The translations under genes and the position numbers were made by a program. Positions 2,365 to 41,984 of a stretch of DNA of 64,000 nt are shown one piece after another. Source of the stretch: an uncultured bacterium (GTDB lineage Bacteria; Oederibacteriota; Muellerivitia; Muellerivitales; Muellerivitaceae); contig CAZGKT010000012.1 of assembly GCA_964525605.1 (NCBI GenBank), positions 7,771 to 71,770 of the forward strand, in the 5' to 3' direction. Position 1 is the first letter of the stretch, and every line of letters begins with the position of its first letter. A model generated the notes under the pieces. The model was not told the DNA's origin. It made no database searches and saw only the letters and a list, made by a program, of their open reading frames with translations.

Positions 2365-3606
2365 TCAAGGATACCTTGGAGAAACGGGCCCCGTGGGTAT
2401 GACATTTGAAGTCACGGGAGGGGTGGGGGTTAAAGCGGGCGAACTCGCCGAAGTTGCACCAGTTGCAAAGCCAATTTGTCCCGGCACGCAGGTCGGAACA
2501 GGAACTGCTAACCAAATCGAGACCGCAGATCCCCAGGACGATTTTTCCCAATTCCAATCAGTCAGCATATTGGGACAAAACTGAACGGTCATGGACCAAG
2601 CCGTGGCCCCCACAACCCCTGGCGTGCTCTTGAGCCAGGCAAAAAGATTGGTATCAAAAGTAGTGTCATCCTGGTTGCAGGCGAAGACGCTGGGTCCCAT
2701 TTCCCCCACCAGAACGGGGTGGGAGGCCAATAGGGTTCCGGGAACCTGGCCGTTCCAGGCACGGTCGGTTATGCCGTGGTCCGCGTAAAAATGGGCCGAA
2801 TAGACAATACCGTTTCCTACGTTGGTGAGTGGATAATTGGCCGCGTGACTCAAGTCCGCGCACCAGGCCAACCCCCCTGCCAGGCAAATATTTTTAGCAC
2901 CCGTAGACCTCACGGCGTTTAAGAGTCCCTGCATGCCCGGGGTCGAAAACCCGGCCCCATCACCCATCCCGCCCTTTTGCCAGAGGGTCCAGGCCGCGTC
3001 GTCATCCATTTTGTTGCTGCTGTAAGGTTCGTTATAAAGGTCGAATAGAACCGCGGGATTATTAGCGTAAAGCCCCGCCAAAGAGCTCCAAAAGGTGACC
3101 GCGTTTTGATCCGCCATGTACTGTTGCTTGGTCCTAGCGTCGGTGCCCCAGGCTCCCCCGCAGGGGGGACTGGCCGTATCCGCTTCCCCCGACCAATGCA
3201 AATCGAGAATGACGTAGGCATTGTGCTTGGAACAAAAATCAACGATATCGGAAATGAACCCTCGGTAAGTGACCAGATCGGCTCCGCCACAGCCGAACCA
3301 AAAATCCTGGTTCATCGGCAGTCGAATAATGTTGGAATGCCAGGCCGTGACGGCCTCTTGGACCGTATCCAGGGGTCTTCCCCACTCGCCGCCGGGGGGG
3401 CCATAGCCGTTACTGCAATATTCCAACCCGGCCACGTTGACCCCCTTCAGTGTGATGGGGCAACCGCTACCAGTGATAACCTGATTGCCTGAAACTAAAA
3501 GCGTGGGAGGAGCCGCGCAGGCTTGAAAGCAAAGGAAGATAATGACCGCCCCCGTCCAAAACGCTCGGGAACAACTCGGCCCTATCCCCCCAAAAATCAT
3601 TGCCAT
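2365..3606 (-). CDS. Secreted glycoside hydrolase family 5 (endo-beta-1,4-glucanase/mannanase type)
   Basis: Signal peptide MAMIFGG...FQACAAP. GH-A clan blocks present: LDLHWSGE, acid/base LYNEPY, nucleophile VLVGEMG. Confidence 0.85.
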   Translation of the reverse strand: MAMIFGGIGPSCSRAFWTGAVIIFLCFQACAAPPTLLVSGNQVITGSGCPITLKGVNVAGLEYCSNGYGPPGGEWGRPLDTVQEAVTAWHSNIIRLPMNQDFWFGCGGADLVTYRGFISDIVDFCSKHNAYVILDLHWSGEADTASPPCGGAWGTDARTKQQYMADQNAVTFWSSLAGLYANNPAVLFDLYNEPYSSNKMDDDAAWTLWQKGGMGDGAGFSTPGMQGLLNAVRSTGAKNICLAGGLAWCADLSHAANYPLTNVGNGIVYSAHFYADHGITDRAWNGQVPGTLLASHPVLVGEMGPSVFACNQDDTTFDTNLFAWLKSTPGVVGATAWSMTVQFCPNMLTDWNWEKSSWGSAVSIWLAVPVPTCVPGQIGFATGATSASSPALTPTPPVTSNVIPTGPVSPRYP

Positions 3607-3663: not shown

Positions 3664-5550
3664 TCAGGGTTTCACCTCAGCCCGAAACGGCGCGGCAGGG
3701 AGGCCGGCACCATTGTAAAGGTTGCATCCAGGATCATCCGCCCAGGCATAACGCGTTCCCTTGGGATGGAACACCCGATCACTCCAAACCACGACTTCCT
3801 TACCCGATATCTTGGCTTGGGCGGGAACATACAGGTTATCTTCTCCCACAATCTCAAATCCAACTAACCGGTCACCCTTTACTTTCAATCCCTTGTCCGC
3901 ATGTTTGAAGGTTACGATCAACTTTTTCCCACTTATTTTCAGCGAGTCGAATAAGGGACCGGAGTAGGGCCCCTTTTTCCCATAGGCTTCATGAAGTGCC
4001 GCGAGGCCTAGGCGATAACCCACATCGATCTTGTCTTTGGGATGTATGGCTTTCGATTCCCCGACATCAATGAGTACCGCCAAACCCGTATGGGGGACGT
4101 CCAGAGCCGCCGCTTGAGCTTCCCGTAATTCGGGCCAGCCGTTTCCCGGCGTGGCATTCGGGTCGTGCCAATTGGGCAATTGGGCGATGATGAAAGGAAA
4201 ATCACCTTCACCCCAGGCCTTTCGCCATCCCTGAATCATGGCGGGGAGAAGTTTTTTGTAATTTTCAGCCTGGCCCACGTTGGTTTCCCCCTGGTACCAG
4301 ATCACGCCGCGCATGCCGTAAGGAATCAAGGGGGCTACCATACCGTTGAACAAGCCGACTGGCCGCATCCCCATGGGTTTCACGCAGGCGTTCAAGCAAA
4401 AACCATTCACCGCTGATAATTGGAGGGGCATGGGTTTTCCCCACCCGCTTTGTTGGAGACTATAAAAAGGAATTTGATAGGATTTCCAATCGGCGGCCGC
4501 CTCGAAAGGTTCCGAGCCATAATTGTCCCAATCCGTGACGATGGGTTGTTCTAACAGGACGTTAAATTTACCCGTGCCCTTCGCCTCAAACTCGATGAAA
4601 TCATAGGCGCTCAAGTCCACGGAGGTGTCATCCGGCGCCAGGGACGTGGTACAGTTCCCCCAACCTCCGGTCTGCACATCCGCCTTCACTTGGCCTACCC
4701 CGGAGTCCACCTGAAATGAAAAAGCGGACCCAGGTTGGGCGTTTGAGGACCAGGCACCAGTGGGAGAGGGGAGCAAGGTGATGGGTTGGTGGGCCGGATT
4801 ATTGGAAGTCAGGCGTAATCCCTTAATCTCCAGTTCCATCCTTTGAAGGCCACTGCGGGCTTTCTGTTCCGAAAGCGATAGCGAATTCCATCCAACCAAA
4901 AGGGGTTTAATGGACGGATTGGTTTCAAAGGCTTCCTCGGGCATCCAGGATTCGATCCAGGTTCCGCCCCAATAGGTTCCTATCATTCCAACAGGAACTT
5001 TCAAATCCTTATGTATTTTCTTAGCGAAATAATAGGCCGCGGCGGAAAAATTCTTGGCTGTGCCCGGATCGCAAACTTTCCAATCCCCGATGGGTTCTTC
5101 CTCGGGTTCGTTTGAAAGACGGCGACCCTGGACAAACCATCGGATGAGAGGGTTATTGGCTTTGGGCACCTCATTCGCCGAATCGCTCGTGTTATTCAGC
5201 GGCAATTCCATATTGGATTGTCCCGCAGCCACCCAGACCTCCCCTACCAGAACATCCCGGATCGTCACGGAACCGGAACCAGAAACCACCAATTCAAAGG
5301 GACCTCCAGCCTTCAGCGAAGGCAAGATGGCCTTCCATTTGCCATCCGATCCGGCCTGGGCCGTGGCCGTTTTGCCATCCATCGTAACCGTGACCGGCTG
5401 GTTGGGATTGTCCTGTCCCCAGACGGGGAGGGGCATCCCACGCTGGAGAACCATGTGGTCCCCGAACAGGGAAGGAAGTTTGATTTGGGCCATGGCCGAA
5501 CCTGACATCAGAAAAATCCAACCGCACAATAGGGTAAAAGGACGGCGCAT
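3664..5550 (-). CDS. SASA/DUF303-family SGNH carbohydrate O-acetylesterase (probable acetyl-mannan/xylan esterase)
   Basis: PSLFGDHMVLQR, VAAGQSNME (GQSN Ser block) and GVIWYQGETN blocks with an inserted beta-sandwich. Signal peptide from M19 (MRRPFTLLCGWIFLMSGSAMA). Track ORF extends to 5604. Confidence 0.8.
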   Translation of the reverse strand: MRRPFTLLCGWIFLMSGSAMAQIKLPSLFGDHMVLQRGMPLPVWGQDNPNQPVTVTMDGKTATAQAGSDGKWKAILPSLKAGGPFELVVSGSGSVTIRDVLVGEVWVAAGQSNMELPLNNTSDSANEVPKANNPLIRWFVQGRRLSNEPEEEPIGDWKVCDPGTAKNFSAAAYYFAKKIHKDLKVPVGMIGTYWGGTWIESWMPEEAFETNPSIKPLLVGWNSLSLSEQKARSGLQRMELEIKGLRLTSNNPAHQPITLLPSPTGAWSSNAQPGSAFSFQVDSGVGQVKADVQTGGWGNCTTSLAPDDTSVDLSAYDFIEFEAKGTGKFNVLLEQPIVTDWDNYGSEPFEAAADWKSYQIPFYSLQQSGWGKPMPLQLSAVNGFCLNACVKPMGMRPVGLFNGMVAPLIPYGMRGVIWYQGETNVGQAENYKKLLPAMIQGWRKAWGEGDFPFIIAQLPNWHDPNATPGNGWPELREAQAAALDVPHTGLAVLIDVGESKAIHPKDKIDVGYRLGLAALHEAYGKKGPYSGPLFDSLKISGKKLIVTFKHADKGLKVKGDRLVGFEIVGEDNLYVPAQAKISGKEVVVWSDRVFHPKGTRYAWADDPGCNLYNGAGLPAAPFRAEVKP

Positions 5551-5664
5551 GGCCAAACCTCCCGGGAAGGATATAAAAGGAAAATGTTTTGGAAGAAAAC
5601 CCATGCGTGCATTTTACTTTTTTTTGTGGGTTTTTGAAAAAGTGTTGGGTGGTAGAACTTCAGC

Positions 5665-6339
5665 TTAGGGTGTCTTTTCCCAGCCAAAGCTATCGGCGTC
5701 CACCACCCCCGGCGAGGTAAACAACGAAGAACCATTCCCGGCGAGCTGAAGGCCCACCTGGTAGACGTTGGAAACATTGGGTGCGGGGGAGGCCTGGTAA
5801 TTCGGTGCGTTCACGTTATACGTCACCTGCATCCATTGGCCGGGAACCAGCTTGACGAAGGTCCCGTTGGCGTATTGATAGGCGCTGTCCTTAAGGAATA
5901 TTTGGGCACCTATCTGGTTGGGAGCGGTCACGACGCCCGACACCAGTTTCACCCACATGGAAAGGGTCATATTGAATAAATTGAGGCCCTGGCCGGAGGA
6001 AGTGATCTGGTAATGGACCGAATATCCGGAAAGGGAAATATAGGTGGTGACACCCGCGTTGACCGAATAAGCCAGGTCAGGAACGGGAATTTCCAAAGCA
6101 TAGGGGCCCTGAAAAGCCTGGGATGTCACGGTCAGGGGCCAAGTTGAGGACAAATTCACCGGACTGGAAGAATCGTAAACCCAACTATCGGTCGTTCCGT
6201 CGTCGAAGGAACCAAAGGAAGCGATGGATGGATTGATCAAGGGGCTGATGGGGCCTGTGACTTTGCCACAGCCTGGCAAGAATAGGCCCAAGCCGATCAA
6301 TGAAAGAAAGGCCCATACGCTCATTGGAGTTTTCATCAT
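5665..6339 (-). CDS. Lipoprotein with beta-rich (CBM-like?) C-terminal domain
   Basis: Lipobox LFLPGC after MMKTPMSVWAFLSLIGLG. ATGA overlap with upstream GH5x2 gene. C-terminal domain compositionally resembles that of lipoprotein 13030..13767. Confidence 0.65.
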   Translation of the reverse strand: MMKTPMSVWAFLSLIGLGLFLPGCGKVTGPISPLINPSIASFGSFDDGTTDSWVYDSSSPVNLSSTWPLTVTSQAFQGPYALEIPVPDLAYSVNAGVTTYISLSGYSVHYQITSSGQGLNLFNMTLSMWVKLVSGVVTAPNQIGAQIFLKDSAYQYANGTFVKLVPGQWMQVTYNVNAPNYQASPAPNVSNVYQVGLQLAGNGSSLFTSPGVVDADSFGWEKTP

Positions 6340-8708
6340 CGGCCTCCCTCCAACTTTTCAGCCTGTAAGACGAACAGGTTCGCGATATTGACATCATCCG
6401 GGTTAAAACTGTTGGCGTCGCTCGAGTCGTGGGGCGCACCCAGCATCCAATAATTAGTGCCATCCCCTCCGGCTGCGTAGAACACCCTCATCATCTCATA
6501 AATCCACTGGGCTTGGTCATAGCCCGGCTTTCCCTTTTCAATGCCGAATTCCTCCATGACCACGGGTTTTTTCAATATTTCATGGGCATCCCGGACATAG
6601 GCGGTCAGGATGGCCGCGAGGGTTTTCGCGTTCCAGCCTGCGCCGTTCTGGGTCGGGTAAACGTGGAAAACGGCGTAATCGATGGAAGGGGACTGGTGGT
6701 CCCGGATAAAGTCCGTGCCCGAATAGTGGGTCCCGTTATTGGCCCTCAAGCCCTCTTCTCCGGTCGTCACCAACTGCTGGACACCCGTTTTTTTCAAGAA
6801 GCCCGCCATCTGGTCGATCCATACCGCCAGAAAATTCCCTGAGGTGTCCTTCTCATCCCGGGGCTCGTTCATCAAATCCCAGGCCATGATCGTCGGGTCG
6901 TTCTTGTAGGCGACCCCGGTGACGGTGTTGACGCGGTTGACCAGCATGGCCATCCAGTCCTGGAACCCCTTCTCAATGGCAGGGTTATCGAAAAAATCGT
7001 TCTTGACGGAGGATCCGTACCACTTGGCCCATTGGGGAGCCCCGCCAAAATCGTTCCAGTTTCCTGACAGGGCCAGGACCAAACGGATATGGTGCTTCCC
7101 GGCCGAGGCGATAACATGGTCCAGAAGCTGCAAGTTCGATTCCACGTATTGGCCGGGGGCTGTCTGGAAGTAGCGGAGTTTTTCCCAATCATCGGGAACG
7201 GGCTTGGACGATTCCCCGAAGGCCCAAGTGCGCATCACGGTAAATCCCATTTTCTCGGCTTCGCTGAAGATGTATTCCACTGAGTCGGGCATGTAATGAA
7301 TGTAATAATTATTGGTGCCCACGAAGCGGAACGGCTTATCCCCGTCGTAAAAGCCGGTTCCCTTGACCGTGATGAAATTTTTCGACCAGGGCTGGGAAGG
7401 CGCGATTAATCGCTTCAGGGGGGGCACCTCAAAGGAAAGAATATTGGAATACTGGTATCCTGAACCGGAGGCGGCCTTGACCTGAAAGTCGTAATGTTTC
7501 CCCGTCGAGAGGTTTTTCAAAAGAATCTGTTGGCTCAAGGCGGGCTGGGAAAGACCCGTTTCATGGTTCAAGAGTCCGTTTTCCCCATACCGGACGGAGA
7601 CTTGCGCCGATGTTGAGAGGACAACCGAAACCGCTTCACTAGCACCCCAATCCACGACAGGTTCCCCCTGGGGTGAGGCGGATACGCCGGTGAAGAGCCC
7701 GCTACCAACCAGAACAGCTGACTTGGATATGGCGGTCAGGGATGTTTGCAGGTCGGTCCAATGGACCGTTTGGGTAGGATCAATGGAGACCATGTAACCA
7801 GCCCCCGAATAAGCTTCTGGGGCCTGGGAATTGGCGGCGATGGGCACGACAGGCTTGCCCATTTGCTGGGCCCAGGTACCCGGGTTCGGCGCGTTGGGAG
7901 TCATCTCTTCCAATATAAAATCAACACCCGGTTGGTCCGCCAATTCCACAGCGGAAAGGCCGGGAGCGCCGGAATCCAAGGAAAGTACCACCTTCGCATT
8001 CGTTCCAAGGCTTTTTACGAAGGAAGCCATGGAAGTCGCCCATTGATCCGCGATGGCCGGATCGCCGAGTTCATAGCGGGGCGCATCGATAAGGTTGAAA
8101 GCCCAGATATTGGGATCCTTCGCGTAAGAAATGCCGGTCACCTTGTTCACCCGGCCCAGGAGCATTTGGACGTATTGCCGATACCAGGCCTTACACTGGA
8201 AATCGAGATAGAAAACCCCCGGATTGTGACTCCCAGCCCAAGCGGCGTAATATCCCTTTCCCCCTTCGGGGCCCGAATCGGCACACAAATCGAGGACCAG
8301 CTTCAACCCGGCTTTTCCGGCCGCGGCTGTCATCTGGTCCAGCTTGGCCAGGGCGGCCTCGTCCCAGGTTCCGGGACCGGTTTGAAGGGGCATAGGCGCT
8401 TTACCCAGGGAAAATGCGTTGGTTTTTACCACCCACACCCCGGCAGCCTTGGCCTGGGAGAAAAAGGCGGTGAGCTGGTCGGGGGACATGCGGTATAGCC
8501 CAGGGGCTTCCAATCCAGTCAGGTAAACCGGTTTGCCATCGGTCTGAAGGGAAAGACCGTCCACCTGCAAACCTCGGGCGGAAGTCGCGACAGCGGCGGT
8601 AAGGGAAGCTTTTCCTTTTTTCTTCTTGGCCGCCGCCTGTGCCCGCGGAACCGCCAGCGCCAAGACCAGGAAGACCACCATCAGCGGGATTAATGCTTTT
8701 GTTTTCAT
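6336..8708 (-). CDS. Secreted tandem GH5-like protein (two TIM-barrel domains separated by an FN3-like segment)
   Basis: Signal peptide MKTKALIPLMVVFLVLALAVPRAQA. ATG at 8708 preferred (AGGA 8 nt upstream); track ORF starts at GTG 8747. Domain 2 has TWAF / WDLMNEPR / VMEEFG. Domain 1 is paralogous but reads FNLIDAPR. Confidence 0.85.
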   Translation of the reverse strand: MKTKALIPLMVVFLVLALAVPRAQAAAKKKKGKASLTAAVATSARGLQVDGLSLQTDGKPVYLTGLEAPGLYRMSPDQLTAFFSQAKAAGVWVVKTNAFSLGKAPMPLQTGPGTWDEAALAKLDQMTAAAGKAGLKLVLDLCADSGPEGGKGYYAAWAGSHNPGVFYLDFQCKAWYRQYVQMLLGRVNKVTGISYAKDPNIWAFNLIDAPRYELGDPAIADQWATSMASFVKSLGTNAKVVLSLDSGAPGLSAVELADQPGVDFILEEMTPNAPNPGTWAQQMGKPVVPIAANSQAPEAYSGAGYMVSIDPTQTVHWTDLQTSLTAISKSAVLVGSGLFTGVSASPQGEPVVDWGASEAVSVVLSTSAQVSVRYGENGLLNHETGLSQPALSQQILLKNLSTGKHYDFQVKAASGSGYQYSNILSFEVPPLKRLIAPSQPWSKNFITVKGTGFYDGDKPFRFVGTNNYYIHYMPDSVEYIFSEAEKMGFTVMRTWAFGESSKPVPDDWEKLRYFQTAPGQYVESNLQLLDHVIASAGKHHIRLVLALSGNWNDFGGAPQWAKWYGSSVKNDFFDNPAIEKGFQDWMAMLVNRVNTVTGVAYKNDPTIMAWDLMNEPRDEKDTSGNFLAVWIDQMAGFLKKTGVQQLVTTGEEGLRANNGTHYSGTDFIRDHQSPSIDYAVFHVYPTQNGAGWNAKTLAAILTAYVRDAHEILKKPVVMEEFGIEKGKPGYDQAQWIYEMMRVFYAAGGDGTNYWMLGAPHDSSDANSFNPDDVNIANLFVLQAEKLEGGR

Positions 8709-8716
8709 GATCATTC

Positions 8717-11700
8717 CTAAAACTTCCCGGTCAGCGAGAATTGCCACATGTTGAGTGTTTGAAGGCTATTGTCGTCCTCCCAATAGTCGAGGAAACTTGG
8801 AAGGCCGTAGGTCAGGGAGGCCAAAACGGTGTTGTTCATAAAATATTTGCTGAAGCTGGCGTAAATATTGGTGTACTGGCCGAAGCGGTATCCGGTCTGG
8901 TCCACGTATTTCACATCCCCCTTGAGCCAGGTGTTGCCCCAGAACTTGTACTTCAACCCCGCGTCGTAGGTGAAGACTTCCCACCATTCGGTAACCGCAT
9001 CCCGGAATATGCCGGTAGCGAGGAACTGGGGCGTGATCTTGTAGTGAAGCTCATAGTTGGAAGTGATTTGAAGGGCCCGGGTGGGAATTTCCGGATTGGC
9101 CAAGGTGGGGTCACCCACGTTGTAACCGTCGTCGTAAAAGTACCACCAAAAATTCATGTAGAGGGGCGACTTGTCGGTGTTGTTGGTCAGGATGGTTCGG
9201 ATCCCGTAGTTACTATTGGTATTCGTCATGGAGGCGTAGTCGTAATACTGGATGTTTAAGTTGAGGCCCGTCAAAAAATCATTCCAAAAAGGGCTCCAAG
9301 TTTCCATGTCTTTGATGAGTTGGAGGGTATCGGTGGCCCAAACGATCTGGAAGTTATTCTGGATGGCTCCCGAGGAGGCCCCGGCAACCTCGTAAGGCAT
9401 GAAAAAGTAAATCGGGTTGACCGTGCGCCCCGCCGTCAATTTAAACGCGCCGAGTTGGTAATTGAGGCCTACGTCATAAGCCTGGTTATTGATGGAGGGA
9501 AGATCGTAAACGCTTCCCTGGTATGCCGTGTTCACGCTTTCGGCAAATTCCCCGAAAACCTGCAGATGAATGTCCCTCAAATAGCCGTTGAGGTCGGCCT
9601 CGTAGGTCTTGATGTCCGCTTCCACGTTGGACGTCAGGGGATTGCTTCCCGGCACGTTGCCATAGCGTCCGTCCAACAGGCCCGCGCCCAGCCACCAGTC
9701 CTCCACAGCGACGGATTTGAAACGCAAGAGATAACCCGCTGAATTTCCCAGGGAGAGGGGAGTGGTGCCATATTGGGCAAAACCCGAGGCCTGAAGCATC
9801 CCCACATTGCCAATGGAATAATGGTCCTCCGCCCCGTAAATCTGGCTGCCCAGGGAAGGACCGCTCAGCAATTGCATGGGATCATCCGAACCGCTCAATT
9901 GGTCGCCCGTGAAAAGGGCCAATTCATTGCCCCCGGCACGGACATCCAGCCGGATTTTTTCCAAATTAAACTGGGCCTGACTGTTTTGCGTTCCCATCAC
10001 CGAACCCTGCACCACCAGTTGTAAATGATCGGAAGGGTTGATTTTGAAGGATATATCCTCCCCGACGACCCCCTCCACCCGTTGGGAACCCGTCCCCAAC
10101 CAGCGAATGTTGTCCAGGTAAAAGGTGCCCCGTCCCGGAAGTCCCGCGACACCCGAAACTTTGAAGGCGATCACGTGAACCTGATTCGCGTTACGCAAGG
10201 TATCCCAAAATCTCCAGGCCGTTCGGGCGCTTTTGAAGTTGTTGCCTTGCAAGGGAATATCCAAATTATGGTTCCACCCGCAATTGAGAGTGACCGAGAG
10301 GGACTCGATGTCTTCCCCGTTGCTGTTTCCGTTGTAGGTCCCACCCGTGTAAAACTGCAGGTTAATGGCCAGGGGCTGTCCGGGGTTGAAGGCGTCGAAG
10401 TCGATATGGGTATAGGGGGAAACATCGATGGAACTGCCGGGGGGCCCGGGGGGGGTGTATTGGAAGATAGGGTTGTTGACGGCGGCGCCTGCGGCGAAGT
10501 TGCAGAGGTAATCCACTTCCAGGGAATGGCTTCCATCGGTCGCGTAAGCATTGCTTCGGGTCAAAATAACTCCCGTGTTGGCCTCCCAGGAAGTGATACT
10601 TCCCTCAAAGCTCTCAAAAGGAGTGTACTGCAGGGACCGGACGGTTAATTGGGTTTCAGACGAGACGCCAATCACCTGTCCCACATCCCGGGAACCTGCG
10701 GCGGGCCCGATCAAATCCCGTTCGATCGTCCGGAGGTTGGACATGAAAACATGCCCGTCGCCCAGGTGGTGGGGATGGATGTTGACGATGACCGTACGGA
10801 TGTCTTCCCGGGTTCTCAGGTAATCGGTCGAGGACCAGTTGGTTTCCAGCGATTTGAAAATGGCTTCGGAAATGTTCACCTTCACATTGCGGTTCCAGCC
10901 AGGCTTCAACGAGTAATCGATGCTTTCCTGCCATTCCGTATTGGGTCCGGTTTGAACGGCCAAGGTGAAAACAACCGAGTAGGATTGGGGATTATAAAAG
11001 TCGAACTCAACGGCAAGGACATTGCTCCAATCCACGAATTTATTTTTCACGAATTGGCAGGCCTGGTCATCGGCGAAGGTGCGGTACCGCAAGTCCACCG
11101 CATATACCCCCTGGGGGTTGTCCCGGGTTTTGAGCGTCGTGTAACCCGCCAAAACCGCGAAAGAATTGCTTCCCGCGCTGGTGGAAGCTTCCCAGCCATC
11201 CGCGGAAGCGTTATAGAGCGGGTCCCATAAAACCGTTCGTCCCTGAATTTCCCCCTTGGGGGCGGCGGACTTGCCCATCGCCACATTGTCCGTTCCGGTG
11301 ACGCGGACATTGTCAAAGTAGGCCGAGCCCGTCAAAGACCCATTATGGTAAAACCCGATGAAAAGGCTTTTAACCTGGTCCAGTTCCTCGGCATAGGCTG
11401 TGTTTTTCCACTGGCTGTCTGCGGTTTTGAAGTTCTTGGTCTTTAAGTAAAAGGTCACGTTTCGGTTCCATCCCGGCTTGACGGAAACGGGATTGGCTTC
11501 CTGCCATAAGAAGGTATCCCCTGTTTTCAGGACCATCCCGGCCTGGAGGGTTTCCTTCAGGGGGTTATAAATGTCCACCTTGACCGCGTCGGAATTTTTA
11601 AGGTTCAGGCTTTCATTTTGTTCGAAGCCATACCAGGCCTGCTGACCGTCGCCGTCGAAATCGAAGGACACCTTCAGCATATGGGTGCCTTCGGTGGCGT

Positions 11701-13012
11701 TCTTGGACTGGACGATGGTCGCCCCGGTTGATTTGTAAGTCCCCCCCATGGCGGCCCAGGGAGTGGTTCCCTTCTCGAAACCCTCCAGGAGGTGGTCGGT
11801 GCCCTCGACTGCCGGAAGGAAGGGCACGGCGGCACGAACGATTTTTTCCAACTCAGGCGCTTGGTCTGTAAGCAACCGCACGTTATCCACGACCACGAAG
11901 CCCTTGCCAATCTGGTGGGAAGCGAAGGAAAGCCCGAATTTCCGTACCGCGCCTAGTCCCACGAGGGGGGCCGTATTGATGTAGTTGCTGGCGGCGCACT
12001 TGTAGATCTTGGATTTCAGGGAGATGGCCACGTTCCGGTTCCAACCGGGCTTCAGGGTTTGGGAAGCGGATTCGTAATAATCCCACTTGGCGCCTGTATT
12101 CAACACGATAGTGGTATCCATCGGGTCTTTCCCCGGCACGAAAACGTCATACATCACGCCATTGGCCGCCGAAAGATCCATGTCGGCCTCCAGGACGAAA
12201 GTGCCCCGGTCATCCGGCTGTTTGTTTTCAAAATTCAAAAAGGCCGCATGGGTTCCTTCCGTGGTCTGGACCGTTTTCACATCCGTATCGGTGGCCGAAG
12301 AATAGTCCTTATCGGGCGCGAAGGGGCAACTCCCGTCCTCAAAACCCGTTACCAGGACCGGGCTTCCCGTAACCAAGTCGGCGGCGGTGAATTTCAGGAC
12401 TTTGCTTTCATCCGCCCCGGTCAAGCGAAGGTCATCCATGTAGAGGTAGCCTTCCCCCTCCTGCTGGGTCTCAAACACAAGGGCCGCTTGCTTCAAGTCG
12501 GACTTGGGATTCAAGGAGGTTATGTCGAAGACAACATTCCGGTTCCACCCCGGAACCAGGGTCGTTTCGGGCGACTTGAGCCAATTCCAGGAGGGGCCCT
12601 GTTTGAGAATGACGGAGCCGGTGAACGTCAAGGGAGAGGAATTGTAAAAATCCACCGTCAGGGAGGTGGCGCCGGTCAGGTCCCCCACCTGGGAAGTGGA
12701 AAAGGCAACCCTTCCACCCCCCTTGGACAGGATGAAATGGCCTCGGTAACCGTAACGGCCGCTGGTAGGAAAATCGGGGGAGATGATTCCGCCATCCATG
12801 ACGCTGGCCTCGAACTGGGTGCCCCAATAGGTGTTACCCAGTTCGAAATCTTCCCAGATGAATGGTTGAGCCGGGGCCGATAAAGGCGATGGAGGCGGCG
12901 GTTCCTGTGCGTAAGAGACGTGGGGCGGTAGACTGCAAGCCAACACAAAAAAGGCGAAGCTCCGAAAAGCCGCGCCAATTTTAAAAGGATATGAATTCAA
13001 TCTGTGACTCAC
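8717..13012 (-). CDS. Giant outer-membrane protein: signal peptide + five tandem PGWNRNV-modules + C-terminal beta-barrel
   Basis: 1431 aa. Signal peptide KIGAAFRSFAFFVLACSLPPHVSYA-QE. Motif PGWNRNV at aa 154, 322, 513, 704 (degenerate CGWNHNL at 911). Last ~450 aa have alternating amphipathic beta pattern ending ...SLTGKF (terminal Phe). Confidence 0.8.
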   Translation of the reverse strand: MSHRLNSYPFKIGAAFRSFAFFVLACSLPPHVSYAQEPPPPSPLSAPAQPFIWEDFELGNTYWGTQFEASVMDGGIISPDFPTSGRYGYRGHFILSKGGGRVAFSTSQVGDLTGATSLTVDFYNSSPLTFTGSVILKQGPSWNWLKSPETTLVPGWNRNVVFDITSLNPKSDLKQAALVFETQQEGEGYLYMDDLRLTGADESKVLKFTAADLVTGSPVLVTGFEDGSCPFAPDKDYSSATDTDVKTVQTTEGTHAAFLNFENKQPDDRGTFVLEADMDLSAANGVMYDVFVPGKDPMDTTIVLNTGAKWDYYESASQTLKPGWNRNVAISLKSKIYKCAASNYINTAPLVGLGAVRKFGLSFASHQIGKGFVVVDNVRLLTDQAPELEKIVRAAVPFLPAVEGTDHLLEGFEKGTTPWAAMGGTYKSTGATIVQSKNATEGTHMLKVSFDFDGDGQQAWYGFEQNESLNLKNSDAVKVDIYNPLKETLQAGMVLKTGDTFLWQEANPVSVKPGWNRNVTFYLKTKNFKTADSQWKNTAYAEELDQVKSLFIGFYHNGSLTGSAYFDNVRVTGTDNVAMGKSAAPKGEIQGRTVLWDPLYNASADGWEASTSAGSNSFAVLAGYTTLKTRDNPQGVYAVDLRYRTFADDQACQFVKNKFVDWSNVLAVEFDFYNPQSYSVVFTLAVQTGPNTEWQESIDYSLKPGWNRNVKVNISEAIFKSLETNWSSTDYLRTREDIRTVIVNIHPHHLGDGHVFMSNLRTIERDLIGPAAGSRDVGQVIGVSSETQLTVRSLQYTPFESFEGSITSWEANTGVILTRSNAYATDGSHSLEVDYLCNFAAGAAVNNPIFQYTPPGPPGSSIDVSPYTHIDFDAFNPGQPLAINLQFYTGGTYNGNSNGEDIESLSVTLNCGWNHNLDIPLQGNNFKSARTAWRFWDTLRNANQVHVIAFKVSGVAGLPGRGTFYLDNIRWLGTGSQRVEGVVGEDISFKINPSDHLQLVVQGSVMGTQNSQAQFNLEKIRLDVRAGGNELALFTGDQLSGSDDPMQLLSGPSLGSQIYGAEDHYSIGNVGMLQASGFAQYGTTPLSLGNSAGYLLRFKSVAVEDWWLGAGLLDGRYGNVPGSNPLTSNVEADIKTYEADLNGYLRDIHLQVFGEFAESVNTAYQGSVYDLPSINNQAYDVGLNYQLGAFKLTAGRTVNPIYFFMPYEVAGASSGAIQNNFQIVWATDTLQLIKDMETWSPFWNDFLTGLNLNIQYYDYASMTNTNSNYGIRTILTNNTDKSPLYMNFWWYFYDDGYNVGDPTLANPEIPTRALQITSNYELHYKITPQFLATGIFRDAVTEWWEVFTYDAGLKYKFWGNTWLKGDVKYVDQTGYRFGQYTNIYASFSKYFMNNTVLASLTYGLPSFLDYWEDDNSLQTLNMWQFSLTGKF

Positions 13013-13029: not shown

Positions 13030-13767
13030 TCAGTAATTCCAATTGAAAATATCGACGATCGCCTGAGAAGCCGTGCCCGAGCCATTGGTGTTGATTTGAA
13101 CCCCGATCAAGACGACCTGCGTGGGATCAAAGCTTCCCACCACGGCACCGGGTACGGAATAAGTCAAGGCCACGCATCCCGGTCCCGCGTTGATCCAGTT
13201 GCTGTAGGAAGAGGCCCAACTTTGGCCGGCACCGTCCTGGACGAAAACATACCCCCCTTGGGGGTAGGTGGCGTTGAACCCCGAAGCAAAGGAAATGACC
13301 GAGCTGATGTTTTTGCCGGCCAAGTTGGTAGCAGTCCCGAGGTTGTATTGGATGTTGGCCTGTTGACTGGTTGCCGTAAAACCGATCGTCACTTCCAACG
13401 CCCCCATATTCGGGGAACAGGAAGCGCTTGGATTGAATCCTGTGGTTACCGACACGCCCGCCGTGGATCCGCTCGCGTTGTAGTTCCATCCGGTGATGGA
13501 GGCCGCCGAACTAAAATAGTAGCCGGGCATCGGGGTCGCGGTCGGCATACCGGTAGGTGTGATCGTGGGAGACATCGTGACCGTGGGGGTGTTGGTCGGT
13601 GGAGGAACGGTCGGCGTTGGATAACCCCAATTGGGCTCGTTGGGATTGTTAACGCCGCATCCGGTGTAAAACAATGGAACGAGGGAAACCACCGCGATAA
13701 ACGCCAAAAACATGAGGACGGCCGAACGTTTCAAGGGAGTCTCCGTGAACCCGGGGCAAATTTTCAA
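13030..13767 (-). CDS. Lipoprotein with Pro/Thr-rich linker and beta-rich C-terminal domain
   Basis: Lipobox LFYTGCG. Linker PTPTVPPPTNTPTVTMSPTITPTGMPTATPMP. 17 nt upstream of OMP gene. Start uncertain (TTG 13767 or ATG 13713). Confidence 0.6.
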   Translation of the reverse strand: MKICPGFTETPLKRSAVLMFLAFIAVVSLVPLFYTGCGVNNPNEPNWGYPTPTVPPPTNTPTVTMSPTITPTGMPTATPMPGYYFSSAASITGWNYNASGSTAGVSVTTGFNPSASCSPNMGALEVTIGFTATSQQANIQYNLGTATNLAGKNISSVISFASGFNATYPQGGYVFVQDGAGQSWASSYSNWINAGPGCVALTYSVPGAVVGSFDPTQVVLIGVQINTNGSGTASQAIVDIFNWNY

Positions 13768-13850: not shown

Positions 13851-14891
13851 TTAACCCCTCGCTCTCGAGGGGGCCTTGGCCGTGGATTCACGGACCACCA
13901 GCTCAACCGGGACCTCCAGCCGGACGGCCTTTTGGTTCCCGTTTTCAATCATCTGCAATACCCGGTTGACGCCCATCTTGCCCATGTACTCCTTTGCCAC
14001 GCTGATGGTCGTCAGGGGCGGATTCGTGTAATTGCTCATCGTGATATTGTCGAAGCCGACCACGCTCAAGTCTTGGGGCACCTTTCGGCCCGTCTCGTGG
14101 GCCGCCCTTAAAACCCCGGCGGACATCTCGTCGTTGACGCAAAAGAGGGCGGTCAAGTCCTTCCGTTTGACAAGAATTTCTTTCGCCCTTGCGTAGCCTT
14201 CCCAAAAATTCAAGTTGTCGGCCTTGAAGATCAGGCCATCGGAGGGCTCAATGCCGTTTTTCACCAGCGCCGATTTCCAACCCGCCAACCTTTCCTGGAT
14301 GCTGGGACGATCCCAAGCCGCGGCCAGGATACCGATTTGCTTGTGCCCAAGCCGGACGAGGTGTTCGACCGCCAGCACCCCGCCCTTGCGGTTGTCGATC
14401 TGAATCGTGTCGATTCCTTTCAAATGGGGAAAGTTGTCGATGGCCGCAATGGGGATTTTCCGCTTTTTCATGTCGGCCGCCATCTTGGGATCGCACCGGC
14501 CTATCACCAGGATTCCATCCACGTTTTTCTCTCGGACGATCTTGGGAAGGCTGGGATAGCCCTGGTAAACCGATTCAATATAGGAAAAGTATAGGTTGAA
14601 ACCCTGGGCCAGGGTTTCCTTCACCACGCCTTCGATCACGAAGGAATAGAAATGGTTCGAGATGGGCTGGTCCTCGAGGTAAAAAATCACCCCCAGATTG
14701 CGCGTTCTTTTCCCCGCCAAGCCCGCCGCGAGGGCGCTCGGGTGGTAGTCCAGCTTTTCCGCCGCCGCCATCACTTTGCGCTGGACCGCCTGGCTGATGA
14801 CCATGTCGGCCCGGCGGTTGAGAACGAAGGATACGGTGGTGATGGACACCCCCGCCGCCTTGGCCACGTCCTTGATTGTCACATGCTTCAT
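13851..14891 (-). CDS. LacI-family transcriptional regulator
   Basis: N-terminal HTH MKHVTIKDVAKAAGVSITTVSFVLN followed by periplasmic-binding-protein-like sugar-binding fold. Confidence 0.9.
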   Translation of the reverse strand: MKHVTIKDVAKAAGVSITTVSFVLNRRADMVISQAVQRKVMAAAEKLDYHPSALAAGLAGKRTRNLGVIFYLEDQPISNHFYSFVIEGVVKETLAQGFNLYFSYIESVYQGYPSLPKIVREKNVDGILVIGRCDPKMAADMKKRKIPIAAIDNFPHLKGIDTIQIDNRKGGVLAVEHLVRLGHKQIGILAAAWDRPSIQERLAGWKSALVKNGIEPSDGLIFKADNLNFWEGYARAKEILVKRKDLTALFCVNDEMSAGVLRAAHETGRKVPQDLSVVGFDNITMSNYTNPPLTTISVAKEYMGKMGVNRVLQMIENGNQKAVRLEVPVELVVRESTAKAPSRARG

Positions 14892-15132: not shown

Positions 15133-15187
15133 TAATCTTAGAGTCGAAAGCCTTTTAAGGCCCGACCATCCAACCCGGAGGATTTCC

Positions 15188-16114
15188 TTGGCTAATGAGA
15201 CCGTGTTTAAGCGTTATTCCCAGAATCCCATCATCACCTCGGCGGCCGTGCCTGACGCGCACGTCATCATGAACAGCGCCGTGATCCGGTTCAAAGGGGC
15301 TTACGCCGGGGTCTTCCGGGTGGACACCCAGGAAATGGTCATGGAACTGCATGTGGGTTTCAGCCAGGACGCCCTCCATTGGGACATCCAGCCCCAGCGC
15401 CTGAAGCTTTACGGCAAGGTCCCAAAGGCCATTCCCTGCGGGATGGGTTACGACCCCCGCATCACCCAGATCGGGAATACCTATTACATCACCTGGTGCT
15501 ATTACCCCACCCCCGGACCCTCCATCGGATTGGCCTCGACCCAGGATTTCAAGAAGTTCACCCAACTTTCGACCATTCTCCTGCCCTACAACCGAAACGC
15601 GGTGCTCTTCCCCCGCAAGATCAACGGAAAGTTCGCCTTGCTTCACCGGCCTTCCGATAACGGCCACACGCCTTTCGGCGATATCTTCTACGCCACGAGC
15701 CCCGACATGATCCATTGGGGAAACCATGAGTTCGTTTTTGGAAGAACCAGCGGCTGGCAAATGACGAAGGTCGGGGCCGGCCCCACGCCCATCGAGACCA
15801 AAGAGGGGTGGGTCATCCTCTATCACGGCGTCCATACCACCTGTAACGGGTTTGTTTATTCCATGGGCGGCGCGATCCTCGATTTGGACCAGCCTTGGAA
15901 AGTGAAGTATCGGACGAAGCGATATCTGATGGCGCCCACCGAGCTCTACGAACGGGTGGGTTTCGTGCCCAATGTGGTCTTCCCCACCGCGGCGATCCTG
16001 GATGAAAAGACCAACCAGATCGATGTCTATTACGGCGCGGCCGACACCTGCGTTTGCCTGGCCTCGGCCGACTTCGGCGAGGTCGTGAAGTTTATCAAGA
16101 AGAACAGCTATTAA
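15188..16114 (+). CDS. Glycoside hydrolase family 130 (beta-mannoside phosphorylase/hydrolase)
   Basis: MANETVFKRYSQNPIIT...LHWD...YDPRI...LLHRPSD...YYGAADTCVCLA; typical GH130 (DUF377) five-bladed propeller blocks. Confidence 0.8.
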   Translation: MANETVFKRYSQNPIITSAAVPDAHVIMNSAVIRFKGAYAGVFRVDTQEMVMELHVGFSQDALHWDIQPQRLKLYGKVPKAIPCGMGYDPRITQIGNTYYITWCYYPTPGPSIGLASTQDFKKFTQLSTILLPYNRNAVLFPRKINGKFALLHRPSDNGHTPFGDIFYATSPDMIHWGNHEFVFGRTSGWQMTKVGAGPTPIETKEGWVILYHGVHTTCNGFVYSMGGAILDLDQPWKVKYRTKRYLMAPTELYERVGFVPNVVFPTAAILDEKTNQIDVYYGAADTCVCLASADFGEVVKFIKKNSY

Positions 16115-16316: not shown

Positions 16317-17612
16317 CTATTTTTTGAAAAAGTTCTTATTCACGTCCGCTGTCGCCTTTTTCAACGCCACCGCCGCCGTCTCGTCCCCGTTCCAGACCCG
16401 TTCCAGTGCCGAATCGATATGGCTCTTCCATTCCGCGATATTGGGGTCCAGCGGCTGCCAATGTCCGTCTTTTACCGCGTCCACCAGGAAAGCCTTGGAC
16501 TTGGGCTGTTGGTTGTCCAGGAAAACCGGCGACTGGGCCAGGGCCTTGATCGCCGGCTGGGTCAAACCGGTGGCGGCCATGTATTTCTCTCCCACCTCGC
16601 CCGCGAGAAACTTCACCAGCTCAAAGGCCAAGTCCGGGTGTTGGGAAGTCCGGATGATGCCGTAACCCGTCGCGCTCATGGGGAAACCCCGATGTCCCTT
16701 CGGCCCCAAGGGGAATTCCACCACATCCCAATCGAATGATTTGATCTCACGGAAACGGGGGGTCATCCAGATCCCGCTGTAGAACATGGCCCCCTGACCG
16801 TTGATGAAGTAATCCGAATTGCCCAACCCGCCCATGGCCGTGGAAGCGCTGGGGCTGGGGGTACAGCCGTACTTGAAGATGAGGTCGGCCCGGAACTGGG
16901 CTCCCGCGATGGCCTCGGGGGTATCCAACATGCATCGCGTGTCGTGGTTTATGTCATCCACCAGGGTTCCCCCGAAGGCGTAAACCCAGGCGTCCCAGGT
17001 CGGGTAATCATCCACGAATCCCCATTGGTCCGTCTTTCCCCCGGCGGCCTTCTTGGTCAGTTTTTGAGCGGTCGCCACGAACTCCTCGTAGGTCCAGTCG
17101 TTCTTCGGGTAAGGCAGGCCCGCTTCGTCGAATTTCTTCTTGTTGTAATAGATCACCGCGATCGGGGCGATATCCCGGGGGATGGCCGTGAGCATGCCGT
17201 TCACCGTGTAATGGTCGATCGCCTCGGGATAAAAATCCGTCAGTTTGATGGAAGGGTCCTTGTCCACATAGGGTTTCAGGTCCACAAATAAACCCCGGGT
17301 GGTAAAGGAAGACATCTGTTCCGCGTTGATGGCCATCACGTCCGGGGCCTGGTTGGCCGAGAAATCGGTCAGGATCTTGGTGATATATTCGCCATAGGGC
17401 GCCCGTTGAAGAACCACCTCCACATCCGGGTGGGCCTTCTTGAAGTCGTCGATCGCGAATTGGACGATCTTGTTCTCCTCCACCCCGCCCCAGCCGATGC
17501 ACGAGAGCGTGACTTTCCCGTTGTTCTTCGAACAGCCGAGGGGGCCTAAAAGAAGAGGCCCAAAGAACGATACAAAAATGGAAAGAGTCAAAGGAACCAT
17601 AAGATTTTTCAT
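16317..17612 (-). CDS. ABC transporter solute-binding lipoprotein (family 1, sugar-binding)
   Basis: Lipobox LLGPLGCS. SBP_bac_1-like sequence throughout. No permease or ATPase genes in the window. Confidence 0.8.
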   Translation of the reverse strand: MKNLMVPLTLSIFVSFFGPLLLGPLGCSKNNGKVTLSCIGWGGVEENKIVQFAIDDFKKAHPDVEVVLQRAPYGEYITKILTDFSANQAPDVMAINAEQMSSFTTRGLFVDLKPYVDKDPSIKLTDFYPEAIDHYTVNGMLTAIPRDIAPIAVIYYNKKKFDEAGLPYPKNDWTYEEFVATAQKLTKKAAGGKTDQWGFVDDYPTWDAWVYAFGGTLVDDINHDTRCMLDTPEAIAGAQFRADLIFKYGCTPSPSASTAMGGLGNSDYFINGQGAMFYSGIWMTPRFREIKSFDWDVVEFPLGPKGHRGFPMSATGYGIIRTSQHPDLAFELVKFLAGEVGEKYMAATGLTQPAIKALAQSPVFLDNQQPKSKAFLVDAVKDGHWQPLDPNIAEWKSHIDSALERVWNGDETAAVALKKATADVNKNFFKK

Positions 17613-41716: not shown

Positions 41717-41984
41717 GGGAGTAGGGTTGATACCCGATGACCAACAGGTTCGACTAAATCGAACATAGGTCGATGTCAGCCAGTTTTATCGTTGAACTTG
41801 GGCAGATTTCCCCTTGAAAAATGAATTTATATAACCGCATGGGTAAACCTGTCGTAGTGTCCGGGGAACCGAGGCATGACCTGGAGCCCGGCCTCTTTTT
41901 GAAACCAGTGGTATTATTACAGTAATTCCCAATTACGCCGTTAGGTGAATGGGTTCGATCCTATATATGACTGGAGAATATGAC

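What the first reader, a model, noticed from the sequence alone, without database searches (positions are those of the whole stretch)
8717..13012. 1431-aa outer-membrane protein made of five tandem PGWNRNV-modules fused to a porin-like barrel
Read directly from the translation:
- Residues ~45-975 are five consecutive ~170-190-aa modules with the same internal order.
- Each opens with an F-E / W motif: FIWEDFELGNTYWG, GFEDGSCPFAP, LEGFEKGTTPWAAMGG, DGWEASTSAGS, FESFEGSITSWEANTG.
- Each has a central (D/E)FDxYNP block: VDFYNSSP, VDIYNPL, EFDFYNPQ, DFDAFNPG.
- Each has an invariant (K/V)PGWNRNV heptad at aa 154, 322, 513 and 704 (nt ~12551, 12047, 11474, 10901). The fifth is degenerate, CGWNHNL, at aa 911.
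- Each closes with G-x-G-x-(F/Y)-x-D-(D/N)-(L/V)-R: GEGYLYMDDLRL, GKGFVVVDNVRL, GSAYFDNVRV, GDGHVFMSNLRT, GRGTFYLDNIRW.
- The last ~450 aa (nt ~8720-10075) have the alternating-hydrophobic pattern of a beta-barrel and end in ...SLTGKF with a terminal Phe, the Bam-recognition signature.
- The gene is cleanly secreted (signal peptide) and sits mid-operon between two lipoproteins and the GH5 genes.

Inference: the modules are beta-sandwich carbohydrate-binding units. That would make this a single-polypeptide glycan-capture device, functionally parallel to but unrelated to SusC/SusD. I cannot place the PGWNRNV module in any named family.
Basis: partly seen in the sequence, partly recalled or inferred. 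Interest (0 to 1): 0.75.

Follow-up and report, generated by a model that had tools for sequence, protein, structure and literature searches.

The report
Mannan-binding module array fused to outer-membrane barrel
An uncultured soil bacterium encodes a rare outer-membrane protein in which five mannanase-type sugar-binding modules are fused to a very large membrane barrel, inside a mannan-degrading gene cluster, which suggests a way of capturing plant polysaccharide that differs from the known Sus and TonB systems.

Summary
ORF 8717-13012 (-) encodes 1431 aa: a signal peptide, five homologous modules of about 170 aa (aa 47-201, 215-384, 403-575, 590-766, 790-975) and a 450-aa C-terminal beta-barrel ending in Phe.

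The barrel matches no Pfam or PDB sequence family. Its model (pLDDT 79) has 23 strands and resembles 24-strand usher and 22-strand TonB-dependent barrels more than porins.

The family is very rare: 18 clusters among 1.84 billion representatives, mostly from candidate division FCPU426. Module order is conserved, and an m5-type module always abuts the barrel.

The gene order lipoprotein, this gene, GH5 mannanase, lipoprotein is conserved. GH130, GH36, an acetylesterase, an ABC binding protein and LacI complete a mannan-utilisation locus.

Best reading: the outer-membrane capture and uptake component of a non-Sus, TonB-independent mannan system. Binding, transport and the side of the membrane the modules face are all untested.

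The parts
8717..13012 (-). Whole ORF, 1431 aa plus stop (TAG at 8717-8719)
12908..13012 (-). Signal-peptide-like N-terminus, aa 1-35. The cleavage after SYA is inferred.
   Evidence: Read from the sequence. Orthologues have N-terminal signal peptides. No signal-peptide predictor was available.
12410..12874 (-). Module 1 (aa 47-201), CBM59-like, with VPGWNRNV
   Evidence: PF21253 at 31.7 bits for this module alone.
11861..12370 (-). Module 2 (aa 215-384)
11288..11806 (-). Module 3 (aa 403-575), the module that was modelled
10715..11245 (-). Module 4 (aa 590-766)
10088..10645 (-). Module 5 (aa 790-975). It is the most divergent (CGWNHNL) and is joined to the barrel by about 6 residues. An m5-type module is barrel-proximal in every family member examined.
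8720..10069 (-). C-terminal beta-barrel (aa 982-1431), 23 predicted strands, terminal Phe
9842..9907 (-). Conserved, low-confidence loop in the barrel (aa 1036-1057, ...SGSDDPMQLL...), with invariant D-P. Its role is unknown, and it could hide a 24th strand.
13030..13767 (-). Upstream lipoprotein (245 aa): lipobox, a Pro/Thr linker of about 40 aa, then a domain homologous to the 224-aa lipoprotein (fold not tested directly)
6336..8714 (-). Downstream secreted GH5 protein. It has an N-terminal GH5-mannanase-like domain whose acid/base Glu is replaced (NLIDAPR), an FN3-like domain, and an active-type GH5 mannanase domain. Its ATG lies 2-8 nt after the target's stop codon.
5665..6339 (-). Downstream lipoprotein (224 aa), a single CBM-like beta-sandwich
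   Evidence: HHalign against the module profile gives 82.6%, E 1e-5. Against the 245-aa lipoprotein it gives 98.4%. Weak CBM_4_9 hit.
3664..5604 (-). SASA-type carbohydrate esterase with a CIA30-like beta-sandwich
2365..3606 (-). Second GH5 enzyme (413 aa), of glucanase type
13851..14891 (-). LacI-family regulator
15188..16114 (+). GH130 beta-1,4-mannooligosaccharide phosphorylase
16317..17612 (-). ABC sugar-binding lipoprotein
17735..19924 (+). GH36 alpha-galactosidase

Best explanation
The gene encodes the outer-membrane component of a (galacto)glucomannan utilisation locus in a bacterium of candidate division FCPU426.

**Proposed mechanism**
1. The protein is exported by Sec.
2. Its C-terminal 450 aa are inserted into the outer membrane as a very large barrel of 22-24 strands.
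3. Five positionally differentiated CBM59-like beta-sandwich modules hang from the barrel.
4. Modules m1-m4 bind mannan chains. I favour a cell-surface location for them only slightly.
5. The co-translated GH5 mannanase and the two lipoproteins (one CBM-like by profile, the other its paralogue) assemble around the barrel and cut the bound polymer.
6. The fragments pass through the barrel without TonB energy.
7. The barrel-proximal module m5 probably sits at or in the barrel mouth as a gate.
8. In the periplasm and cytoplasm, the ABC binding protein, GH130, GH36 and the esterase finish the job.

**Shown:** the domain anatomy, the fold classes, the rarity, the conserved module order, the conserved gene order and the mannan-specific enzyme context.

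**Inferred:** glycan binding, channel function, complex formation, m5 as a gate, and topology.
For: **Modules**
- Five significant repeats.
- PF21253 above its cut-off.
- The module profile hits the CBM59-bearing mannanase 1WKY at E 7e-6, and also CBM11 and CBM27.

**Barrel**
- AF2 gives an all-beta model with 23 strands, pLDDT 79.
- Every full-length family sequence inspected ends in Phe.

**Not a TonB-dependent transporter, autotransporter or usher by sequence**
- No Pfam hit for the barrel at E<=10, and no plug domain.
- No PDB sequence hit.

**Context**
- The order lipoprotein, target, GH5, lipoprotein is conserved in seven related loci, down to 39% identity. A target-GH pair also occurs at 26% identity.
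- The mannanase start codon is 2-8 nt from the target's stop codon.
- The GH5 partner is a true mannanase (8GF3, E 2.5e-55).
- GH130, GH36, a SASA esterase, an ABC binding protein and LacI are adjacent.
- The 224-aa lipoprotein is CBM-like by profile comparison, and the 245-aa one is its paralogue.

**Module order**
- The order m1, m2/3, m4, m5 is conserved across the family. An m5-type module is always next to the barrel, even in a two-module, 850-aa member.
Against: - There are no binding, localisation or transport data.
- A CBM-like fold does not prove glycan binding. The invariant GWN segment lies in a stretch that did not align with 1WKY.
- The barrel model rests on an alignment of only 11 sequences (pLDDT 79, pTM 0.67). 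Several strands are only weakly amphipathic.
- Topology is unresolved. 23 DSSP strands would put the N-terminus outside. However, all turns among strands 1-4 are 2 residues long, and the low-confidence loop at aa 1036-1057 could hide a 24th strand. That would put the modules in the periplasm, which is the default for N-terminal domains of C-terminal barrels.
- The partner enzymes carry ordinary signal peptides with no recognisable surface-export signal.
- Whether FCPU426 has a BAM-type outer membrane was not verified here.
Confidence: 0.5

Rival explanations
1. Periplasmic-ratchet importer. The barrel has an even strand number (24), and all five modules hang into the periplasm. Long mannan chains enter through the usher-sized pore. 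The periplasmic CBM array traps them so that diffusion becomes one-way. Periplasmic GH5 enzymes and the esterase then degrade them ('selfish' uptake without TonB).
For: - The best structural match is to 24-strand ushers.
- By established knowledge, known bacterial outer-membrane barrels have even strand numbers, and their N-terminal domains are periplasmic.
- Both GH5 enzymes and the esterase have plain signal peptides, which is consistent with a periplasmic location.
- The link between m5 and the barrel is too short (about 6 aa) to thread through a pore.
Against: - DSSP counts 23 strands, not 24.
- The pattern of long loops places the N-terminus on the long-loop side unless a strand is hidden.
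- The Pro/Thr linker of the 245-aa lipoprotein is typical of extracellular glycan-binding or glycan-degrading proteins.
- No precedent is known to me for a periplasmic array of CBMs.
Confidence: 0.25
2. Surface-display anchor only. The barrel merely anchors the CBM array, and perhaps exports it in the manner of an autotransporter. This tethers the cell or its enzymes to mannan-rich plant debris, and oligosaccharides enter by other routes.
For: - The architecture of N-terminal passenger-like beta-sandwich domains plus a C-terminal barrel is formally that of type V secretion. By established knowledge, inverse autotransporters export beta-sandwich arrays.
- The module count varies from 2 to 5 while the barrel stays constant.
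Against: - A 22-24 strand barrel is far larger than an anchor needs. There is no match to the 12-strand autotransporter barrel family and no helical linker.
- The barrel is as conserved as the modules. It also has conserved loops, which suggests a function of its own.
Confidence: 0.13
3. Secretion pore. The barrel translocates the adjacent mannanase and/or the two lipoproteins to the cell surface, in the manner of an usher or Slam. The beta-sandwich modules act as periplasmic docking domains rather than glycan binders.
For: - The closest fold is the usher translocation pore.
- There is tight translational coupling with the mannanase.
- Two conserved flanking lipoproteins carry a conserved post-Cys motif, CGKVTGPISPL.
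Against: - The modules are closest to a mannan-associated CBM family, in both sequence and fold.
- There is no usher Pfam match, no inserted plug domain and no chaperone gene.
Confidence: 0.09
4. The C-terminal domain is not membrane-embedded, and the protein is a soluble secreted multi-CBM protein. The barrel model would then be an artefact of a shallow alignment.
For: Moderate pLDDT (79), only 11 sequences in the alignment, and weak amphipathicity in some strands.
Against: - Two independent structure searches return only outer-membrane barrels.
- The terminal Phe is conserved, with an alternating pattern in the last strands.
- The predicted loops alternate between long and short.
Confidence: 0.03

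Closest known systems
CBM59 of GH5_8 and GH26 mannanases (Pfam PF21253; structure 1WKY, Bacillus sp. JAMB-602)
   Different: - Here there are five copies in tandem, attached to a membrane barrel rather than to a catalytic domain.
- The modules carry an invariant GWN motif and a loop of about 25 residues (FK..W) that did not align with 1WKY.
- Modules 2, 4 and 5 do not reach the Pfam threshold on their own.
SusC/SusD-type utilisomes of Bacteroidota
   Same: The logic is the same: an outer-membrane barrel, glycan-binding surface proteins and an endo-acting enzyme, encoded together with downstream catabolic genes and a regulator.
   Different: - There is no TonB box, no plug domain, no TonB-dependent barrel sequence family and no SusD-like protein.
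- The binding domains are covalently fused to the barrel.
- The enzymes are not lipoproteins.
- Inner-membrane uptake is through an ABC system.
Chaperone-usher translocation pores (FimD, PapC)
   Different: Identity is 9% and there is no PF00577 match. There is no plug domain inserted in the barrel, no C-terminal domains, and no chaperone or pilin genes.
Sugar-specific channels (LamB, ScrY, ChiP, CymA)
   Same: These are TonB-independent outer-membrane passages for oligosaccharides that are encoded in catabolic regulons. From my own knowledge, ScrY also has an N-terminal periplasmic extension with weak sugar affinity.
Type V secretion (autotransporters, intimin/invasin)
   Same: A single polypeptide combines a barrel with an array of beta-rich domains.
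   Different: The type V barrel has 12 strands and a lumen-spanning linker. Neither feature is seen here.
CBM9-like domain plus DUF5916 barrel proteins (recalled from memory, not tested)
   Same: This would be another uncharacterised fusion of a CBM-like domain to a large predicted barrel.
   Different: It has one CBM9-like domain rather than five CBM59-like ones. No Pfam DUF5916 hit was found here, and no literature on it was found.

Membership tests
CBM59 / Pfam PF21253 (Mann_GBD_bact) | Match to the family HMM above the curated threshold | tested here: met
   The whole protein scores 54.8 bits against a cut-off of 27. Module 1 scores 31.7 and module 3 scores 36.4 on their own. Modules 2, 4 and 5 give no hit on their own, but they are homologous to modules 1 and 3.
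CBM59 / Pfam PF21253 (Mann_GBD_bact) | Beta-sandwich fold superposable on the solved CBM59 (1WKY) | tested here: met
CBM59 / Pfam PF21253 (Mann_GBD_bact) | Demonstrated binding to mannan, xylan or cellulose | not testable with these tools
   This needs recombinant modules tested by affinity gels or ITC.
CBM59 / Pfam PF21253 (Mann_GBD_bact) | Appended to a carbohydrate-active catalytic module (the usual CAZy definition of a CBM) | tested here: not met
   The only other domain in the polypeptide is the barrel. The mannanase is a separate, adjacent gene.
TonB-dependent transporter / SusC | N-terminal plug domain (PF07715) with a TonB box, and a barrel of family PF00593 | tested here: not met
   No such Pfam hits for the whole protein at E<=0.01, or for the barrel at E<=10. 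There is only size-level fold similarity (Foldseek TM 0.40-0.47).
TonB-dependent transporter / SusC | Adjacent SusD-like lipoprotein | tested here: not met
   The flanking lipoproteins have no SusD Pfam match. The 224-aa one is CBM-like by profile comparison and the 245-aa one is its paralogue.
Classical autotransporter (type Va) | 12-strand C-terminal barrel (PF03797) preceded by a helical linker | tested here: not met
   No Pfam hit. There are 23 strands, and no helix lies between m5 and strand 1.
Chaperone-usher usher | PF00577 match, a plug domain inserted in the barrel, and neighbouring chaperone and pilin genes | tested here: not met
   No Pfam hit. There is no insertion of about 80 aa in the barrel. 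The neighbours are glycan-utilisation genes.
Chaperone-usher usher | 24-strand barrel | tested here: inconclusive
Sugar porins (LamB/ScrY, OprB, ChiP) | 16-18 strand barrel belonging to the corresponding Pfam families | tested here: not met
   No Pfam hit. The barrel is larger, and maltoporin aligns over only 267 of 460 residues.
BAM-inserted outer-membrane barrel (generic) | Signal peptide, closed antiparallel barrel, and a C-terminal strand ending in an aromatic residue | tested here: met

The most novel reading that the evidence does not exclude
This is a TonB-independent, self-contained polysaccharide importer. An usher-sized pore would be gated by its own barrel-proximal CBM-like module. 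An array of positionally specialised CBMs would capture mannan chains and feed or ratchet them across the outer membrane. That would give an uncultured phylum a 'selfish' glycan-uptake machine that evolved independently of SusCD.
Probability: 0.2. Interest if true: 0.85.

Novelty: new variant of a known kind. Interest (0 to 1): 0.62.

Why it matters
Outer-membrane glycan acquisition is understood mainly through two solutions: TonB-dependent SusCD-type transporters and small sugar-specific porins. A 2026 review of bacterial glycoside transporters mentions no barrel with fused CBMs in the passages I retrieved.

This family combines a barrel that belongs to no described sequence family with a conserved, ordered array of mannanase-type binding modules. 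It is locked into an operon with a mannanase and two lipoproteins, at least one of them CBM-like.

If it transports sugar, it would show that energy-independent capture and uptake of hemicellulose can be built from CBMs and a large barrel. It would also explain how a rare-biosphere soil and wetland phylum competes for plant polysaccharide. Finally, it would give five new CBM59-like modules and a new barrel scaffold for study or engineering.

Tried and rejected
- **Whole-protein self-BLAST** reported no off-diagonal hits for the real sequence or the shuffles, so it was uninformative. I replaced it with module-by-module comparisons.
- **Word-indexed homologue searches** with the barrel alone and with the module profile returned only fragments of the same family.
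- **The look-up of encoding contigs** for the identical public protein found nothing.
- **The afdb50 fold library** was unavailable.
- **The metagenome scan** added only four loci of the same kind.
- **The barrel profile against PDB sequences** gave only chance-level hits.
- **HHalign of the 245-aa lipoprotein against the module profile** was not significant (0.6%). Its link to the modules is only indirect, through the 224-aa lipoprotein.
- **Literature searches** for CBM-barrel fusions and for DUF5916 found no description.
- **Inferring topology from strand parity and loop lengths**: I judged this undecidable.
- **An exopolysaccharide-export role** (as for AlgE or BcsC) was rejected because the locus is catabolic (LacI, GH130, GH36, an ABC binding protein).
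- **The minus-strand ORF 15155-15835** was first treated as a conserved gene. It is the shadow of the GH130 gene on the plus strand.

Full report

Yes. The window holds a 1431-codon ORF at 8717..13012 on the minus strand.

GWNRN occurs at aa 155, 323, 514 and 705, and CGWNHN starts at 911.

I cut the protein into five pieces and compared them with each other. Identities were 24-32%, with E-values from 2e-9 to 8e-25. The exception was m1 against m5, at E 0.004. Smith-Waterman scores were 12-34 standard deviations above 200 shuffles for nine of ten pairs. For m1-m5, z was 3.1. No module scored above shuffle level against the C-terminal region.

An HMM built from the five pieces places the modules at aa 47-201, 215-384, 403-575, 590-766 and 790-975. 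In an alignment of 49 modules from the family, four columns are invariant: the Asp of the DxYN block and the G, W and N of GWN.

The N-terminus has a signal-peptide-like sequence only if the GTG or TTG start is used. The public gene call (P0001, 1360 aa) starts at Met72 and loses it. Orthologues begin with clear signal peptides just upstream of the conserved WEDFE motif, so the long ORF is the better call.

**2. What are the modules?**

The protein matches Pfam PF21253 ('Mannanase, galactose-binding domain-like') at 54.8 bits against a cut-off of 27. Modules 1 and 3 pass the threshold on their own.

A profile of the 49 modules finds these PDB sequences:
- the GH5 mannanase of Bacillus sp. JAMB-602, 1WKY, at E 7e-6
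- CtCBM11 at E 2e-3
- CsCBM27 at E 0.03

They are also a distinct subtype. The stretch that carries GWN and the following FK..W loop of about 25 residues did not align with 1WKY.

Whether the modules bind mannan was not, and could not be, tested here.

**3. What is the C-terminal domain?**

It has no Pfam match even at E 10. Neither the single sequence nor the profile finds a PDB sequence relative.

An AlphaFold2 model built from 11 family sequences has pLDDT 79.1 and pTM 0.67. It has 23 DSSP strands, with long loops and short turns alternating.

| Search | Match | Strands | Score | Residues aligned |
|---|---|---|---|---|

Foldseek ranks BtuB, FimD and PapC first. Every full-length family sequence I inspected ends in Phe.

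I conclude that this is an outer-membrane-type barrel of 22-24 strands. That is much larger than a porin, and it belongs to no described sequence family.

A pore that wide normally needs a plug, as in TonB-dependent transporters, ushers and LptD-LptE (established knowledge). No plug domain is inserted in the barrel sequence.

**4. How common is the family, and how conserved?**

It is very rare. The word-indexed search of 5.8 billion proteins found 13 relatives. An exhaustive profile search of 1.84 billion cluster representatives with the barrel found 18 proteins. A metagenome scan added 4 loci. Genome hits are mostly MAGs labelled candidate division FCPU426. This is a rare-biosphere lineage that one study links to the cellulolytic Goldbacteria (PMC7031533; PMC10434106).

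Every full-length member inspected has the same plan: a signal peptide, 2-5 modules and the barrel.

HMMs built for each module position show that the order is conserved: m1, then m2/3, then m4, then m5. Four-module proteins lack one member of the m2/m3 pair. The module next to the barrel is m5-type in every member, including an 850-aa two-module protein.

All modules and the barrel are similarly conserved between orthologues. The m4-m5 linker is conserved while the other linkers are not. The repeats are therefore old and functionally differentiated, and m5 is coupled to the barrel. Only about six residues separate m5 from the first strand.

**5. Genomic context**

On the minus strand the order is: LacI, a 245-aa lipoprotein, the target, an 803-aa GH5 protein, a 224-aa lipoprotein, a SASA-type esterase, and a 413-aa GH5. 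Three further genes lie next to these:
- a lipoprotein ABC sugar-binding protein
- a GH130 beta-1,4-mannooligosaccharide phosphorylase
- a GH36 alpha-galactosidase

The 803-aa protein has three parts:
- an N-terminal GH5-mannanase-like domain (E 2.9e-24 to 9M20), in which the acid/base NEP motif reads IDAP
- an FN3-like domain
- a C-terminal GH5 mannanase (8GF3 at E 2.5e-55) with NEPR and EEFG

Its ATG lies 2-8 nt after the target's TAG.

The two lipoproteins are paralogues (HHalign 98.4%). The 224-aa one is a single beta-sandwich distantly related to the modules (82.6%, E 1e-5). The 245-aa one carries a Pro/Thr linker of about 40 residues.

The core order lipoprotein, target, GH5, lipoprotein recurs in seven related loci, down to 39% identity. 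A homologue at 26% identity, probably in another lineage, sits between GH8/GH5 genes and a clan-A glycosidase plus a lipoprotein.

The locus is thus a (galacto)glucomannan utilisation locus, and the target is its conserved membrane component.

**6. How it most likely works**

*Shown:* the anatomy, the folds, the conserved order and the conserved operon.

*Inferred:* the protein is the outer-membrane capture and uptake unit of the locus. Modules m1-m4 bind mannan. The co-translated mannanase and the lipoproteins assemble on it. Fragments cross through the barrel without TonB, since there is no plug and no TonB box. m5 sits at or in the barrel mouth.

I could not settle which side of the membrane the modules face.
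- A 23-strand count, with all six long loops on one side, would put the N-terminus outside.
- However, the first four turns are all two residues long. The conserved, low-confidence loop at aa 1036-1057 (SGSDDPMQLL) could hide a 24th strand.
- An even barrel would leave the modules in the periplasm. That is the default for such architectures, and it would fit the plain signal peptides of the enzymes.

I therefore keep a periplasmic-ratchet importer as the main rival (0.25). After it come a pure surface anchor (0.13), a secretion pore for the partners (0.09) and a modelling artefact (0.03).

**7. Comparison with known systems**

In logic it resembles a Sus-like utilisome, but it fails every SusC/SusD membership feature I tested. 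It also fails those of autotransporters, ushers and sugar porins (see the membership table).

The modules pass the sequence and fold tests for PF21253/CBM59. They are not attached to an enzyme.

I found no description of a fusion between a CBM array and a barrel in the literature I could search. From memory, CBM9-like plus DUF5916 proteins may be a loosely similar, uncharacterised case.

**8. Verdict**

This is a new, very rare outer-membrane protein family built from known kinds of parts in a new arrangement, sitting in a coherent mannan locus. Its function is plausible but unproven.

Interest is 0.62. The most novel reading not excluded is a self-gated, TonB-independent polysaccharide importer (p about 0.2).

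Noticed in passing
window 15188-16114 (+) and 15155-15835 (-): The plus-strand ORF is a GH130 beta-1,4-mannooligosaccharide phosphorylase (E 1.4e-61). The 226-aa minus-strand ORF looked conserved in related loci, but it is the GH130 gene's antisense shadow.
   Followed up: yes
window 6336-8714 (-): The 803-aa GH5 protein is a tandem. Its N-terminal mannanase-like domain has the catalytic acid/base motif NEP replaced by IDAP, so it is probably inactive and may act as a binding domain. An FN3-like domain and an intact GH5 mannanase follow.
   Followed up: partly
window 5665-6339 (-) and 13030-13767 (-): The two flanking lipoproteins are paralogues. The 224-aa one and its orthologues share a conserved motif, CGKVTGPISPL, right after the lipidated Cys; this may be a sorting or docking signal. 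The 245-aa one has a Pro/Thr linker of about 40 residues.
   Followed up: partly
window 12800-13012 (-): The public gene call for this protein (P0001, 1360 aa) starts at Met72 and omits the signal peptide and the first conserved motif. The start codon is probably GTG at 13012 or TTG at 13000, and neither has an obvious Shine-Dalgarno sequence.
   Followed up: partly
window 16317-17612 (-): The ABC sugar-binding protein is itself a lipoprotein (LGPLGCSK) and has no permease genes next to it. In related locus L001, about 4 kb of extra sequence lies between the GH130 and LacI genes.
   Followed up: no
window 30957-39863 (+): A 2968-aa protein carries two GH94 supersandwich stretches, a GH94 catalytic domain and a glucoamylase-like domain. 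It resembles cyclic beta-1,2-glucan synthases.
   Followed up: no
window 23125-27276 (-) and 27481-29637 (+): A 1383-aa protein has several glycosyltransferase domains (GT4-type and a DXD-type). It lies next to a carbamoyltransferase.
   Followed up: no
window 41949-43304 (+), 44656-47949 (-), 50695-52077 (-): Three further genes: a bacterial serpin (E 4e-98), a 1097-aa STAND NTPase with TPR repeats, and an alginate-lyase-family protein fused to TPR repeats.
   Followed up: no
L010 10010-10603; L011 8515-9369: Single GWN-type modules also occur free-standing. One is a 197-aa secreted protein between a glycosidase and an ABC binding protein, in a MAG labelled Bacillota. The other is a 284-aa lipoprotein in a Planctomycetota MAG.
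   Followed up: partly
L009 6289-9737: In the most distant locus, the GH8 and GH5 enzymes upstream of the homologue share an almost identical C-terminal tail (...QISQTDAFILLR and ...QISQTDVFVLLR). This may be a shared sorting or anchoring domain. Pfam did not identify it.
   Followed up: no
window 9842-9907 (-), aa 1036-1057: The most conserved stretch of the barrel (TGDQLSGSDDPMQLL, with invariant D-P) is also its least confidently modelled loop. It could be a gate, a partner-binding site or a hidden strand.
   Followed up: partly
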